This document shows positions 9,669 through 15,186 of a stretch of DNA of 64,000 bases, one piece after another. A model generated the notes under the pieces. It was not told where the DNA came from and did not search any database. It worked only from the letters and a program-made list of their open reading frames with translations. Position 1 is the stretch's first letter. Every line of letters begins with the position of its first letter. Source of the stretch: the human T2T-CHM13v2.0 reference genome, Homo sapiens; NCBI RefSeq assembly GCF_009914755.1, contig NC_060928.1; one strand, given 5' to 3'. The translations under genes and the position numbers were made by a program.

Positions 9669-11023
9669 TCTCTGTGGACCAGGAAGCTTTTAAAAGTTGA
9701 TTCTTTGCCTAGTTTTGATCCTTTATGATCTTTGGGAAATTCCTGTTGCTGGAGACGTCTCACCTCTGGTTACCTTAATCAGGCAATGAGTCTATATTTC
9801 GGTGGTCATTTAGATTTCTCCCTTAGCCTTTGGGCCAAAAGGTGGCAATAATCTTCTTATAACCTAAAACAACCTCTCTCCTCCTAGTAGTGTATACATG
9901 GTGCACTGAAAAAAATCTATATCCCTTACCTTTACAGATGGTAGGAGTACAAACTGATGCCAGCACAGCAACTCTCCAACTTATATAGTATTAAAAATGA
10001 GCATTTACATATGATGCCATATAATTTAGTGTTTGGATCTCCTACTCCCCTGCCACCCATTTGTGCACTCTGTGCTCTTATTTCTTATGGTAAAACAATC
10101 CTGTATTTCAAGTAAACAAACTTAATCAGTTTAATATAGAAACAAATACTCTAGGAAAATTAAGTTTTATTATAAACATATTAATGAAAATCAAAATAAT
10201 TTAAAATATAATAATGGCTTTCAGAGAAAAGTGTTTTTGCTTTCCTTTATTATTTTTGCTAATAGTCATAAAAAGATAAGGAAGTTAGCCAATAATGTTA
10301 TCAGAAAACACAGCAAAGCTTTTAGATGCCCTTAAACTGTCACCAAAATCAAGTGTAATTTACTTTCTTTTATGTATTACTAGCAATACTTATGTCACAT
10401 TTTTCAGTGTTCCCATACTATCAGGGAATGTGTATATTCCACTGAGCTCTGATTATTTGGTAGTGGTGTTACATTTTAACATAGTATGGCCATAAAGTTG
10501 TACTAAAAAATAGTGAATTTTTTTTATTCTGTATGAGGAAATAAGCTATTTCTCCATTCTTTTATCTAAACACTTGATAACATAGGATAAACATTAACCC
10601 TTCAATTAACTAAATATAACAATTGGCAAAGAATTCACGTTAGGAAAGGTACAAAGCAGTAAATCTACAGATTGTTGGTCCTAGGATATATAGCTCTTCT
10701 GGTAATTACAGAAGTCTGTAGTATTTCTTAATTTTTCAGCACAGTTGATAAAGATAATATGGATAGACACTCAAATTGTTTTTATTTTACTTCGAAGATC
10801 AGCACATTTTTGAACATTTAGAAAATACCAGATTTCTCTGGCATGTAATTTCTCTATTTAAGGATAAAAAATCTGATGAACTCTCAAGTCCCTATTACCT
10901 TAAATTCCAAAATTGTTTTAAAAATGTTGAGCTAGTTACTTCTTGAGGAAGGAGAAAGAACAAAATAAGTATATTCATAAACCTTCTCTATTAAAGTTAC
11001 ACAGACTTTAAAGAAAACGTCAC

Positions 11024-11998
11024 CCTTTGTCAGATGGATAGAGTGCTAAAATTTTATCCCATTCTATAAGTTGCCTGCTCACTATGATAATAGTTCCTTT
11101 TGCTGTGCAGAAGCTTTTTAGTTTAATCAGATCCCATTTATCTATTTTGGCTTTTGTTGCTATTGCTTGTGGTGTTTTCATCAGGAAGTCCTTGCCCATG
11201 CCTATGTCCTGAATGGTATTGCCTAGGTTTTCTTCTAGGGTTTTTAAGGTTTTAGGTCTTTCGTTTAAGTCTTTAATCTCTCTTGAGTTAATTTTTGTAT
11301 AAAGTGTAATGAAGTGGTCCAGTTTTAGCTTTCTGCATATGGCTAGCCAGTTTTACCAACATCATTTATTAAATAGGGAATCCTTTCCCCATTGCTTGTT
11401 TTTGTCAGGTTTGTCAAAGATCAGATGGTTGTAGATGTGTGGCATTATTTCTGAGGCCTCTGTTCTGTTCTATTGGTCTATATCTGTTTTGGTACCAGTA
11501 CCGTGCTGTTTTTGTTACTGTAGCCTTGTAGTATAGTTTGAAGTTAGGTAGCGTGATCCCTCCAGCTTTCTTCTTTTTTATTAGGATTGTCTTGGCTATG
11601 CAGACTCTTTTTTGGTTCCATATGAAACCAAATTTAAAGTATGAAATTTAAAGTAGTTTGTTTCCAATTCTGTGAAGAAAGTCAATGGTAATTTGATGGG
11701 GATAGCACTGAATCTATAAATTATTTTGGGCAGTATGGCCATTTTCACAGTGTTGATTTTTCCTCTCCATGAGCATGGAATGTTTTTCCATTTGTTTGTT
11801 TCCTCTCTTACTTCCTTGAGCAGTGGTTTGTAGTTCTCCTTGAAGAGGTCCTTCACATCCCTTGTAAGTTGTATTTCTAAGTATTTTATTCTCTTTGTAG
11901 CATTTGTGAATGAGAGTTCACTCATAATTTGGCTCTCTGTTTGTCTGTTATTGGTGTATAGGAATGCATGTGATTTTTGCACATTGATTTTGTATTCT
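11024..11998 (-). mobile_element. L1PA (approx. PA6-PA8) ORF2 segment, inverted 5' part of a twin-primed insertion
   Basis: Reverse complement of L1 ORF2 (ORF track: YKINVQKS...[23 protein letters not shown]...). Confidence 0.93.
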
Positions 11999-13150
11999 AA
12001 AAAAAACAACCCCATCAAAAAGTGGGCAAAGGATATGAACAGACACTTCTCAAAAGAAGACATTTATGTAGCCAACAAACATATGAAAAAGAGTTCATCA
12101 TCACTGGTCATTAGAGAAAAGCAAATCAAAACCACAATGAGATACCATCTTATGCCAGTTAGAATGGCGATTATTAAAAAGTCAGGAAACAGGCCAGGTG
12201 TGGTGGCTCACGCCTGTAATCTCAGCACTTTGGGAGGCCGAGGCGGGTGGATCATGAAGTCAGGAGATCGAGACCATCCTGGCTAACATGGTGAAACCCT
12301 GTCTCTACTAAAAAATACAAAAAATTAGCCAGGCGTGGTGGTGGGCACCTGTAGTCCCAGCTACTCGGGAGGCTGAGGCAGGAGAATGGCGTGAACCCAG
12401 GAGGCGGAGCTTAGAGTGAGCTGAGATTGTGCCACTGCACTCCAGCCTGGGTGACAGAGTGAGACTCTGTCTCAAAAGAAAAAAAAAAGGTCAGGAAACA
12501 ACAGATACTGGAGAGGATGTGGAGAAATAGGAATGCTTTCACACTCTTGGTGGGAGTGTAAATTTGTTCAACCATTGTAGAAGACAGTGTGGCGATTCCT
12601 CAAGGATCTAGAACTAGAAATACCATTTGACCCAGCAATCCCATTACTGGGTATATACCCGAAGGATTATAAATCATTCTATGATAAAGACACATGCACA
12701 CATATGTTTATTGGGTTACTATTCACAATAGCAAAAACTTGGAACCAACCCAAATGTCCATCAATGATAGACTGGATAAAGAAAATGTGGCACATATACA
12801 CCATGGAATACTATGCAACTGTAAAAAAGGATGAGTTCATGTCCTTTGCAGGAACATGGATGAAGATGGAAACCATCATTCTCTGCAAGCTAACACAGGA
12901 ACAGAAAACCAAACACCGCATGTTGTCACTCATAAGTGGGAGTTGAACAATGAGAACACATGGACACAGGGAGGGGAACATCACACAGCGGGGCCTGTCT
13001 GGGGGTGGGTGGCTAGGGGAGGGATAGCATTAGGAGAAATACCTAATGTAGATGATGGGTTGATGGGTGCAGCATACCACCATGGCACATGTATACCTAT
13101 TTAACAAACCTGCACATTCTGCACATGTACCTTAGAACTTAAAGTATAAT
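11999..13150 (+). mobile_element. L1PA ORF2 C-terminus and 3' UTR, non-inverted part of the same insertion
   Basis: [20 protein letters not shown]...; WRFLKDLELEIPFDPAIPLLGIYP...; 3' UTR ends cttagaacttaaagtataat. Confidence 0.95.
12192..12488 (+). mobile_element. AluY nested in L1
   Basis: Y-type gagatcgagaccatcctggctaaca and gaatggcgtgaacc; TSD gtcaggaaaca at 12181-12191 and 12490-12500. Confidence 0.95.
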
Positions 13151-13982
13151 TATATATATAGTATATATACATACATACGTATATACATGTATATATATTA
13201 CATATCTGTCCTCATTAGTTGGAATACAGCAGGCTTTACTAGTGTATCTGAAGTAAGGAGGAACCAGGAAGTGAGCTGTTTTGTAATGGAGACCAGTTAT
13301 ATCTAACAGAGGGCAACAGTGTCTATAAGACTGTAGCCTATTGGATGGGAAGCTATCTTATGCAAATATGATGAATCTTTTAAATTCTGAGTTCAATGCA
13401 GTCTACAGCTAAACTCAAATCCCGGCTCATACTAACCTTGGTCCTTGGGCATGTTTATGCTTCAGTTTTCTCATCTGTACATGGGTTAATAACAATACTC
13501 AGCTTGACAGTAACCATACTGCACAGTGCCTAACACATGTAAGTGCTCAATTAACGTCCATTTCTACTTTCTGAAAATATATGGTATTAGTGTGCAAAAA
13601 GTTGGGCTACATAACTCAAATCTCCTTTGTATCTTAGGTAAGACCGCTTCTTTCTCTGGATTGTTTCTTCTAGTCAAATGCACAGGAATTTAGTTGATCT
13701 CCCAAGTTATTTTGGACCTTAAATTCTGTTTTATTCTTGTTCATTTTCTATGTAGTTTAGATTTAGTTCATTGGACTGATTTATGTTCTGTGTTCTTTTA
13801 AAATTCAGGAAGATGTGTATAGGATAGATAGAGCAAATATATAAACACTCAATTTCATTTACTTTAATATAAAAACTAACAAGTTTCTCATTAGTTATAA
13901 TAACCTTAAAATTGATGTGTTTGGGAAGCAACCTGCATAGTCATTAAAAGCAGGAGTTACAGAATCACAAAAAAAAAAAAAG
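13151..13982 (+). mobile_element. Putative L1 3'-transduced segment with ATTAAA signal and poly(A) tail
   Basis: ATTAAA at 13943-13948, A-run at 13969-13981, then aaagaaaacatcac (13983-13996) matching aaagaaaacgtcac (11010-11023). Confidence 0.78.
13405..13560 (+). mobile_element. MIR fragment (inside the transduced segment)
   Basis: tcaaatcccggctc...cttcagttttctcatctgta...acagtgcctaacacatgtaagtgctcaat. Confidence 0.75.
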
Positions 13983-15186
13983 AAAGAAAACATCACTAAC
14001 AATGAAAGCAGTAACTAATAAATATAAGTTGTTTTTAATTGTGCAAACAATTTGAGATTTGAAAAGTATTTCTGGACCAAGATGGTGACAGAAATTTTAG
14101 GGCATCAGTTTGGTCTTGAAGTTTAACAAGATTTAATTGTCAGAAGTATACTGTAAAGTGTATTCTTTTTCTTCTTCCCCTCTTCCAAACCACAATAATG
14201 TAAAGGGTATGTGGTTATTATCAGTAAGAACAATTAGACCAGAATTCATCAGAATGGATATCATATTAATTCTGTCCTGGTTAACTGTGATAATTTAAGT
14301 CTTTGTGTATTTTCACTTGTTCAATGAGTCACTGGGTATTTTAACAATGAAAAATCGGTCGGAACAGTGTTACACTGAGAATAAGCACTCTTGAAATGCC
14401 CAATACTTTTGAAATAATGAATACCTGTTGTTAGGTAAGAAATTAATAATTATTAAGTTCAATAACTCATCTCCTTTTAGAAAGTCCCACTGTATCTGTT
14501 ATAAAATTTTAAGAAATTTTCGAGGTCGGCGAATTTACAAGGAGCTGTATTTATGGCATCTTTCTGGATCCTACTTTTGCATTCTATCTTTCTGGTTAAG
14601 TTCATTAGGGTTTCCAGCAGTGGTTATCTTGGATCTGAAACATTGTCAGAGATCATATGAAAACCTGAAACTGTAAAATAAGGGTAAAGGAATGGTAGCG
14701 ATTGTAAAATTAAGAACAAAAATCAGATTTCACACAACAGAATTTGAAAGCTTGAAATAATAGAGAATTTTCAGTGTTTCAATAAATAAATAAAATATTA
14801 TTAGTGAAGGGAATTAAGAGTTTGATATTATCTTGATGAATTCAAGGTAGCTGAAATTAGCAAATCTGATTTTGTTTGCATACTGATAGTGTATCATCTA
14901 GTGGGAGAATCAGGTGAACTAAATTCTCAGAGACTGATGTATAAATCAAAGTATAAAAATATTGTGTTGGTAACTTACAGGGCACTGCTTAGATTTCTTT
15001 TTTCTCACAATTCTCTCTTAATGAGATCTTGCAGAATGGCGAACTTCTCACATTTTTTGACTGGCATATTCCTTCTTTAAACTTGTTAATACCATTACTT
15101 AGGTTAGTGTCAACTGTCACTGGTTTCAAGGAGTCTTACAATCTCTGAAAGTTGACATTTCAGATTTCTAACTTAATTCATTGAGT

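What the first reader, a model, noticed from the sequence alone, without database searches (positions are those of the whole stretch)
11010..13996. Twin-primed L1 carrying an ~820-bp 3' transduction, bounded by a hidden 14-bp TSD
Seen: aaagaaaacgtcac (11010-11023) follows ttt, a canonical L1 endonuclease TT|AAAA-type site. After it come the inverted ORF2 segment (11024-11998) and forward L1 to its 3' end (13150). There the L1 has no AATAAA or A-tail and no TSD. About 820 bp of non-L1 DNA containing a MIR follows, then ATTAAA (13943-13948), an A-run ~20 nt later (13969-13981) and aaagaaaacatcac (13983-13996). The single TSD mismatch is a CpG>CpA decay. Established: L1 transcripts can read through their weak poly(A) signal and carry downstream DNA (3' transduction), and twin priming produces 5' inversions. 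Inference: 13151-13968 is DNA imported from another locus, and it would identify the source L1. A repeat masker would likely call it unique intronic sequence.
Basis: partly seen in the sequence, partly recalled or inferred. Interest (0 to 1): 0.85.

Follow-up and report, generated by a model that had tools for sequence, protein, structure and literature searches.

The report
Inverted L1 carrying imported chr14 DNA
An old L1 jumping-gene copy in a GRID2 intron brought about 0.78 kb of chromosome 14 DNA with it in one insertion event, which is a correct but textbook case of L1 3' transduction with a 5' inversion.

Summary
AAAGAAAACGTCAC (11010-11023) recurs with one CpG-to-CpA change at 13983-13996, directly after an A13 run that starts about 20 nt after ATTAAA. 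ORF2p alignments show an inverted L1 piece (aa ~730-1047, with 1047 next to the 5' repeat) joined to a forward piece (aa 1064 to the stop, then 3' UTR to 13150). About 40-48 nt are missing between them, the twin-priming signature.

The decisive test was possible. 13197-13971 has one paralog in this T2T genome, on contig C14 (chr14), 91.7% identical. Homology stops exactly where the chr4 A-tail begins. On chr14 that point lies ~20 nt after ATTAAA and before a GU-rich stretch. So the DNA arrived from chr14 as a polyadenylated RNA, inside the same target-site duplication as the L1.

One prediction failed. No L1PA-like sequence lies within 60 kb upstream or 9 kb downstream of the chr14 paralog. 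The source L1 is therefore inferred to be lost (about 0.78), with a template-switch chimera as the main rival.

The empty site in other primates could not be tested, and the MIR call was not confirmed. A later 286-bp local duplicate of the L1-end/chr14 junction lies at 15999-16287. This is an ordinary mechanism and a new instance of it; interest is low.

The parts
11010..11023 (+). 5' target-site duplication AAAGAAAACGTCAC. It is preceded by TTT, so the site reads TT|AAAG on the top strand (an L1 endonuclease-type site).
   Evidence: (D17)
11024..11998 (-). Inverted L1 ORF2 segment, aa ~730-1047 in human ORF2p numbering. aa 1047 abuts the 5' TSD and aa ~730 abuts the inversion junction. The frame carries 7 stop codons.
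   Evidence: aa 731-847, E 3e-61; aa 939-1047, E 8e-49
11999..12191 (+). Forward L1 ORF2 segment, aa 1064-1127. About 16 aa (38-46 nt measured against five L1 copies) are missing between it and the inverted segment.
   Evidence: (E 1e-31)
12192..12484 (+). Later Alu-like SINE insertion with an A-tail. It is flanked by its own 16-bp duplication (12176-12191 and 12485-12500, 15 of 16 identical).
   Evidence: D2; this stretch hits many ~77-88% identical copies in 70 kb of chr14; the name Alu is recalled from the sequence
12501..13150 (+). Rest of the forward L1: ORF2 C-terminus (aa 1155-1274, stop at 12944-12946) and the 3' UTR, ending ...GAACTTAAAGTATAAT.
   Evidence: E 3e-67; same end motif before the A-rich tails of two other L1s in the window
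13151..13196 (+). 46-nt TA/TACA-rich low-complexity tract between the L1 end and the chr14-derived DNA. It is absent from chr14. Inferred to be the decayed A-tail of the source L1.
   Evidence: (D4, I1-I2)
13197..13971 (+). DNA retro-copied from chr14 (G000:C14:~79848257-79849025). Counts: 704 matches, 64 mismatches, 4 gap events (91.7%). Boundaries are good to about +/-3 nt.
13943..13948 (+). ATTAAA poly(A) signal. It is also present in chr14, where a CA cleavage site and a GU-rich stretch follow.
13969..13982 (+). Terminal poly(A) tail (A13 then G). The first ~3 A are shared with chr14; the rest are non-templated.
13983..13996 (+). 3' target-site duplication AAAGAAAACATCAC (13 of 14; CG>CA).
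15999..16287 (+). Later local duplicate of 13096-13381: the last 55 nt of the L1, the TA tract, and the first 181 nt of chr14-derived DNA. It sits inside a (CT)n(TA)n microsatellite and is about 96.5% identical to its template.

Best explanation
All of 11024-13982 is the product of one L1 target-primed reverse transcription event, into a TT|AAAG site of a GRID2 intron, roughly 20-30 million years ago.

The template was an L1PA-type RNA. It had read through its own weak terminator into the DNA 3' of a source element on chr14, and was cleaved and polyadenylated ~20 nt after a chr14 ATTAAA. That is a 3' transduction of ~775 nt. The source's own tail survives as the 46-nt TA-rich tract.

First-strand cDNA started on the new poly(A) and ran back to ORF2 codon ~1064. 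The second nicked strand then primed internally at codon ~1047 and copied back to codon ~730. Joining the two cDNAs gave the inverted 5' segment with a ~40-48-nt loss (twin priming), and the staggered nicks gave the 14-bp TSD.

The source L1 on chr14 is not in this assembly. It is inferred to have been a polymorphic allele that was lost.

Later events were an Alu insertion into the L1, and a local copy of the L1-end/chr14 junction placed 2.9 kb downstream.

Shown: the structure, the TSD, the chr14 origin, and an RNA intermediate that ended at the chr14 poly(A) site.
Inferred: that the RNA was an L1 read-through, and that the source L1 was lost.
For: 1. Inversion geometry. The TSD-proximal end of the inverted piece is ORF2p aa 1047 and its far end is aa ~731. 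The forward piece starts at aa 1064 and runs to aa 1274 and the stop. Against five longer L1 copies the gap is 38-46 nt.

2. Same age for both pieces. Mismatches to the same L1 copies are 8.2-11.0% for the inverted piece and 7.2-10.9% for the forward piece.

3. L1 end. The same GAACTTAAAGTATAAT motif precedes the A-rich tails of two other L1s in the window, and one of those tails is also TA-interrupted.

4. Origin on chr14. A whole-genome search with 13201-13968 returned 3 of 3 scored candidates: itself, C14:79848261-79849022 (91% over 1-768), and the local partial copy.

5. Boundaries. Homology starts after the TA tract. It stops at ...CAGAATCACAAA, where chr4 continues with A's and chr14 continues GAACTGTGACTTTGTATCTGTGTG. 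Both carry ATTAAA ~20 nt upstream.

6. TSD. The repeat matches 13 of 14, directly after the tail and directly before the inverted L1. The null rate is 1.7e-6 per pair.

7. Age consistency. The chr4-chr14 divergence is 8.3% mismatches. The best other genomic copies of the L1 3' 660 nt are 91-94% identical (40 of 8380 candidates scored).

8. Literature passages.
- 3' transductions and 5' inversions are common L1 outcomes (PMC10760644).
- Source L1s missing from the reference are common. Only 3 of 6 human calls had a reference L1 at the source (PMC4862182). In Table 4 of PMC9311842, 51 L1 sources are non-reference and 217 are in GRCh38.
- Catalogued L1 chimeras carry the partner RNA 5' of the L1, not 3' (bioRxiv 10.1101/2025.02.02.635956).
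Against: - No L1 lies next to the chr14 paralog. The DNA directly upstream is unique sequence plus an Alu.
- The insertion itself, two L1 copies shown (L013, homologous to the others only over its last ~3.2 kb, and L018, near full length) and a 5'UTR-ORF1-ORF2 piece (L019) were each blasted against chr14 from -60 kb to +9 kb. They found only one old ~68-70%-identical fragment, 45 kb upstream on the opposite strand.
- No sibling insertion carrying the same chr14 DNA exists in this genome. Nothing independent therefore shows that an L1 ever sat there.
- The chr14 sequence at the 5' homology boundary (TATTTT|ACATAA) is only a weak L1 endonuclease-type site, and the boundary is blurred by the TA tract.
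- The tract between the L1 and the chr14 DNA is TA-rich, not an A-run.
- The empty site in other primates was not examined.
Confidence: 0.78

Rival explanations
1. Chimeric retrocopy with no source L1 on chr14. Reverse transcription started on the poly(A) tail of an independent chr14 transcript, mobilised in trans. The enzyme then jumped to the 3' end of an L1 RNA, or the two RNAs were ligated or trans-spliced beforehand. Twin priming followed. All of this happened within one insertion event.
For: - No L1 of any part lies within -60 kb to +9 kb of the chr14 paralog.
- There are no sibling copies.
- The structure (one TSD, one terminal tail, an A/TA-rich tract at the junction) fits a jump onto an L1 poly(A) tail equally well.
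- Template switching and RNA ligation are accepted routes to L1 chimeras (passages of bioRxiv 10.1101/2025.02.02.635956).
Against: - Catalogued L1 chimeras have the partner RNA 5' of a retained L1 3' end, in keeping with cis preference (same preprint, passages). Here the partner is on the 3' side.
- This route needs two rare steps: trans mobilisation and then a jump exactly onto an L1 tail.
- Loss of a polymorphic source L1 is common (PMC4862182 and PMC9311842 passages).
- No transcript or promoter evidence for the chr14 segment was available here.
Confidence: 0.12
2. Two separate insertions. A twin-primed L1 ended at ~13200 and its own TSD has decayed. An unrelated chr14 retrocopy later landed in its tail. 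On this view the 14-bp repeat is a coincidence.
For: - A low-complexity tract separates the L1 from the chr14 DNA.
- A-rich 14-mers are easier to match by chance, and the raw pattern count is not significant.
Against: - The 13-of-14 match sits exactly at the outer edge of the inverted L1 and exactly after the terminal tail. The null rate is 1.7e-6 per pair, even among 14-mers that follow A-runs.
- No alternative TSD follows 13200.
- The chr14 piece has no flanking repeat of its own.
Confidence: 0.03
3. 13197-13971 is native chr4 DNA, and the chr14 copy is a DNA-level duplicate of it.
For: None beyond the existence of two copies.
Against: - The homology ends coincide with the L1 tail tract on one side and the start of a non-templated A-run on the other.
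- chr14 has the ATTAAA, the CA site and a GU-rich downstream stretch, and continues without a tail or repeat.
- This is the signature of chr14 as template and chr4 as processed copy.
Confidence: 0.01

Closest known systems
L1 3' transduction (read-through of the L1 terminator; Moran 1999, Goodier 2000 and Pickeral 2000 recalled; described in passages of PMC10760644 and PMC9311842)
   Same: The order is L1 3' end, then a tail remnant, then unique non-L1 DNA, then a poly(A) signal, an A-tail and the TSD. The extra DNA maps to one other locus and ends at that locus's poly(A) site. Its length (~775 nt) is within reported ranges (51-1570 bp in PMC4862182).
   Different: The donor locus carries no L1 in this T2T assembly, so the parent element cannot be named. 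The internal tail is now a TA-rich microsatellite rather than an A-run.
Twin-priming 5' inversion (Ostertag and Kazazian 2001, seen only as cited in PMC10760644; the original, PMC311219, is not held)
   Same: An inverted 5' piece whose TSD-proximal end (aa 1047) nearly abuts the start of the forward piece (aa 1064). There is a small deletion at the junction and a single TSD around both pieces.
   Different: Nothing unusual. Microhomology at the junctions could not be judged (1 nt at most).
Transductions from non-reference or lost source elements, including orphan transductions (Solyom 2012 as cited in PMC10760644; Table 4 of PMC9311842)
   Same: The source L1 is absent from the reference genome at the donor locus.
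   Different: Those cases are recent human polymorphisms whose source can be found in other individuals. Here the event is old and the source may be extinct. This insertion is not orphan, because it keeps 2.1 kb of L1.
L1 chimeric insertions with cellular RNAs (U6/L1, Alu/L1, mRNA/L1; bioRxiv 10.1101/2025.02.02.635956, abstract and passages)
   Same: Two unrelated RNA-derived segments lie in the same orientation inside one TSD.
   Different: In the catalogued chimeras the partner lies 5' of the L1 and the L1 supplies the 3' end and tail. Here the non-L1 part supplies the 3' end and tail.

Membership tests
L1 3' transduction | The L1 sequence runs to its normal 3' end and is followed by non-L1 DNA in the same orientation. 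| tested here: met
   ORF2p is matched to aa 1274 plus the stop. The end motif is shared with two other L1s in the window. Non-L1 DNA follows.
L1 3' transduction | The extra DNA ends with a poly(A) signal and a non-templated A-tail. | tested here: met
   ATTAAA is at 13943-13948 and A13 starts at 13969. chr14 diverges there.
L1 3' transduction | One TSD at an endonuclease-type site encloses the L1 together with the extra DNA. | tested here: met
   14 bp, 13 of 14 identical, TT|AAAG site; null rate 1.7e-6 per pair.
L1 3' transduction | The extra DNA is a copy of a unique locus elsewhere in the genome. | tested here: met
   A single paralog on C14, 91.7% identical over ~770 nt.
L1 3' transduction | The donor DNA lies directly 3' of a source L1. 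In an old event this is corroborating rather than strictly required, because source alleles can be lost. | tested here: not met
   No L1PA-like sequence from -60 kb to +9 kb at the chr14 locus in this assembly. For this reason, membership is stated as the most likely mechanism and not as proven.
L1 3' transduction | L1 and extra DNA are present or absent together across species (clean empty site). | not testable with these tools
   No primate genomes are held. The flanks have no paralog in this genome.
Twin-priming 5' inversion | The 5' L1 segment is inverted relative to the 3' segment. | tested here: met
Twin-priming 5' inversion | The L1 coordinate next to the 5' TSD is the highest of the inverted piece, and it nearly abuts the start of the forward piece (small deletion or duplication). 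| tested here: met
   aa 1047 against aa 1064; 38-46 nt missing when measured against five L1 copies.
Twin-priming 5' inversion | Both pieces come from one RNA (same subfamily and age). | tested here: met
   Similar mismatch rates to the same L1 copies, 8.2-11.0% and 7.2-10.9%. The subfamily was not named because no consensus library is available.
Twin-priming 5' inversion | Microhomology at the priming site and at the junction. | tested here: inconclusive
   At most 1 nt at 11023/11024. The junction lies at the edge of an A-run.
L1 chimeric insertion (template switch or RNA ligation) | The partner RNA is fused 5' of a retained L1 3' end. | tested here: not met
   The non-L1 part lies 3' of the L1. 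The definition is taken from passages of bioRxiv 10.1101/2025.02.02.635956.

The most novel reading that the evidence does not exclude
No L1 ever sat at the chr14 locus. Reverse transcription began on an independent polyadenylated chr14 transcript, jumped onto the tail of an L1 RNA, and then twin-primed. That would be three template uses in one event. It would give a '3'-side' L1 chimera, a class absent from current catalogues, which list partners only on the 5' side.
Probability: 0.1. Interest if true: 0.45.

Novelty: new member of a known kind. Interest (0 to 1): 0.22.

Why it matters
The value is mainly for annotation.

- About 0.78 kb of apparently unique GRID2 intron is really a ~92% retro-copy of chr14. 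This affects orthology and alignment calls, and repeat masking misses it.
- It marks a chr14 site where an active L1PA probably once sat and has since vanished, a 'ghost' progenitor detectable only through its offspring.
- It placed an ATTAAA poly(A) signal in the sense orientation inside a GRID2 intron. No effect on GRID2 was tested.
- It shows that searching for TSDs beyond an L1's apparent end recovers hidden transductions.

None of this changes what is known about L1 biology.

Tried and rejected
- Whole inverted frame to the PDB search. I used the stop-free sub-stretches instead.
- First L1 reference loci, L011 and L012. They proved to be short truncated copies and were not used. Longer copies L013-L018 replaced them. 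L013 shares only its last ~3.2 kb with the others. L015, L016 and L018 extend through ORF1.
- MIR check. A low-stringency blastn of 13385-13570 against 134 kb found no further copies. The MIR call is neither confirmed nor refuted, because there is no repeat library here.
- 'Virtual empty site' through paralogs of the flanks. Both flanks are single-copy, so there is no internal evidence for the pre-insertion sequence.
- Sibling hypothesis for the 16-kb copy (a second offspring of the same source). Rejected. On the shared 181 nt the differences are 6 mismatches (13k vs 16k), 12 mismatches plus 1 gap (13k vs chr14), and 15 mismatches plus 1 gap (16k vs chr14). The two chr4 copies therefore share a long branch apart from chr14, and they lie only 2.9 kb apart.
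- Spliced read-through from a distant chr14 L1. Considered because ...CTAAG precedes the homology start. Rejected as unsupported: AAG is a poor acceptor, and no L1PA lies in the 60 kb upstream.
- Papers. PMC156586 (Szak 2003) and PMC311219 (Ostertag and Kazazian 2001) are not held. Search one search gave nothing useful.
- No search for this specific locus in print was made, so I do not claim it is unpublished.

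
Full report
**Observation**

- ...gacttt|AAAGAAAACGTCAC (11010-11023) is followed at once by antisense L1.
- ATTAAA lies at 13943-13948, and an A13 run at 13969-13981 is followed by one G.
- AAAGAAAACATCAC then occupies 13983-13996.
- The single difference is G>A inside a CG.

A pattern scan finds only these two copies at <=1 mismatch. 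That count alone is weak: 3 matches at <=2 mismatches against 0.56 expected, and 1 of 100 shuffles reached 3.

A positional null is more telling. I took the 14-mers that follow the 18 A-runs of >=8 in the window and compared them with all other 14-mers. Only 6 of 3,455,298 pairs reach 13 of 14 (1.7e-6 per pair). One of the 6 is this pair and 3 come from a tandem duplication. Here the two copies sit exactly at the outer edge of the L1 and exactly after the tail.

**L1 anatomy**

Stop-free pieces of the region were matched to solved human L1 ORF2p chains.

| Window stretch | Strand | ORF2p residues |
|---|---|---|
| 11026-11352 | - | 939-1047 |
| 11599-11997 | - | 731-847 |
| 11999-12190 | + | 1064-1127 |
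| 12581-12943 | + | 1155-1274, then a stop |

The inverted piece therefore has its highest L1 coordinate next to the 5' repeat and descends to the junction. The forward piece resumes 16 codons further on. Measured against five longer genomic L1 copies, the missing stretch is 38-46 nt.

This polarity and the near-abutment are what the twin-priming model predicts (model as described in passages of PMC10760644).

Both pieces differ from the same L1 copies by similar amounts: 8.2-11.0% mismatches for the inverted piece and 7.2-10.9% for the forward piece. This argues against two unrelated L1s.

The L1 ends at 13150 with GAACTTAAAGTATAAT. The same motif precedes the A-rich tails of two other L1s in the window.

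An Alu-like element with a 16-bp duplication of its own interrupts the forward piece at 12192-12484.

**The extra DNA**

A search of the whole assembly with 13201-13968 scored three candidates:
- the query itself;
- C14:79848261-79849022, 91% identical over the full 768 nt;
- a partial copy inside the window at 16107-16287.

Aligned, the chr4 and chr14 copies show 704 matches, 64 mismatches and 4 gap events (91.7%).

Homology begins right after a 46-nt TA/TACA-rich tract (13151-13196) that chr14 lacks. It ends at ...CAGAATCACAAA. There chr4 continues with A's and the 3' repeat, while chr14 continues GAACTGTGACTTTGTATCTGTGTG. Both copies carry ATTAAA about 20 nt upstream.

So chr14 has a poly(A) signal, a CA cleavage site and a GU-rich downstream stretch exactly where the chr4 copy acquires a non-templated tail. 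That fixes the direction as chr14 to chr4 and shows an RNA intermediate.

Because the 14-bp repeat encloses the L1 and this DNA together, both arrived in a single event.

**The failed prediction**

It does not.
- Upstream of the chr14 copy lies unique DNA and an Alu.
- The insertion itself was blasted against chr14 from -60 kb to +9 kb. So were the L1 copies L013 (homologous to the others only over its last ~3.2 kb) and L018 (near full length), and a 5'UTR-ORF1-ORF2 piece, L019.
- Together these found only one old fragment, ~68-70% identical, 45 kb away on the opposite strand.
- No sibling insertion with the same chr14 DNA exists in the genome.

The simplest reading is that the source L1 was a polymorphic allele that was later lost. 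In present-day humans, sources missing from the reference are common. Only 3 of 6 calls had a reference L1 at the source in PMC4862182 (passage). Table 4 of PMC9311842 lists 51 non-reference L1 sources against 217 in GRCh38.

The alternative is a chimera made by template switching or RNA joining, with no L1 on chr14. It cannot be excluded here. However, catalogued L1 chimeras carry the partner on the 5' side of the L1 (bioRxiv 10.1101/2025.02.02.635956, passages), and this route needs two rare steps.

I put read-through at about 0.78 and the chimera at about 0.12.

**Age**

The 8.3% mismatch between the chr4 and chr14 copies is on the same scale as the 6-9% difference between the L1 3' part and its best genomic relatives (40 of 8380 candidates scored). 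The best-scoring relatives of the inverted piece are 86-88% identical when gaps are counted (40 of 13,896 scored). With recalled primate substitution rates, this suggests an insertion some 20-30 million years ago. That date is an inference.

**Later local event**

15999-16287 repeats 13096-13381: the last 55 nt of the L1, the TA tract, and the first 181 nt of chr14-derived DNA. It is about 96.5% identical to its template.

It shares with the 13-kb copy changes that chr14 lacks, so it was copied locally well after the insertion. (CT)n(TA)n arrays lie on both sides of it. That pattern fits a templated insertion by replication template switching at the microsatellite, but this was not tested.

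**Comparison with what is known, and verdict**

The structure matches L1 3' transduction combined with twin priming in every feature that could be tested, with one exception: no L1 is present at the donor locus. Both mechanisms are textbook. This copy is a new instance rather than a new kind.

The 'MIR' inside the imported DNA was not confirmed. The primate empty-site test could not be run, because the flanks are single-copy in this genome.

Interest is low.

Noticed in passing
window 15999-16287 (flanked by 15937-15998 and 16288-16430): A 286-289-bp duplicate of 13096-13381 (L1 3' end, TA tract, and the first 181 nt of chr14-derived DNA). It is about 96.5% identical and is embedded between two (CT)n(TA)n arrays. 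It looks like a templated insertion into a microsatellite made after the L1 event. Its middle part (16115-16277) is unmasked in NCBI's file.
   Followed up: partly
window 12192-12484, with repeats at 12176-12191 and 12485-12500: An Alu-like SINE inserted into the forward L1 segment, with a 16-bp target-site duplication (15 of 16 identical).
   Followed up: partly
window 17577-17625 and 29169-29215: Two other short L1 3' ends on the + strand. The tail at 17593 is interrupted by (TA)n, which shows how an L1 A-tail can turn TA-rich. The tail at 29185 is (CAA)n-like.
   Followed up: no
window 45659-45712: A 27-bp tandem duplication (GCACTGGAAAACACAATGTCAAA... twice) separated by a short A-run. It turned up as a false 'TSD' in the null test.
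   Followed up: no
L002:2263-2295 (chr14, just 3' of the homology end): A GU-rich stretch (GAACTGTGACTTTGTATCTGTGTG) directly downstream of the inferred cleavage site. It fits a genuine poly(A) site at the donor locus. Whether that site is used today is unknown.
   Followed up: no
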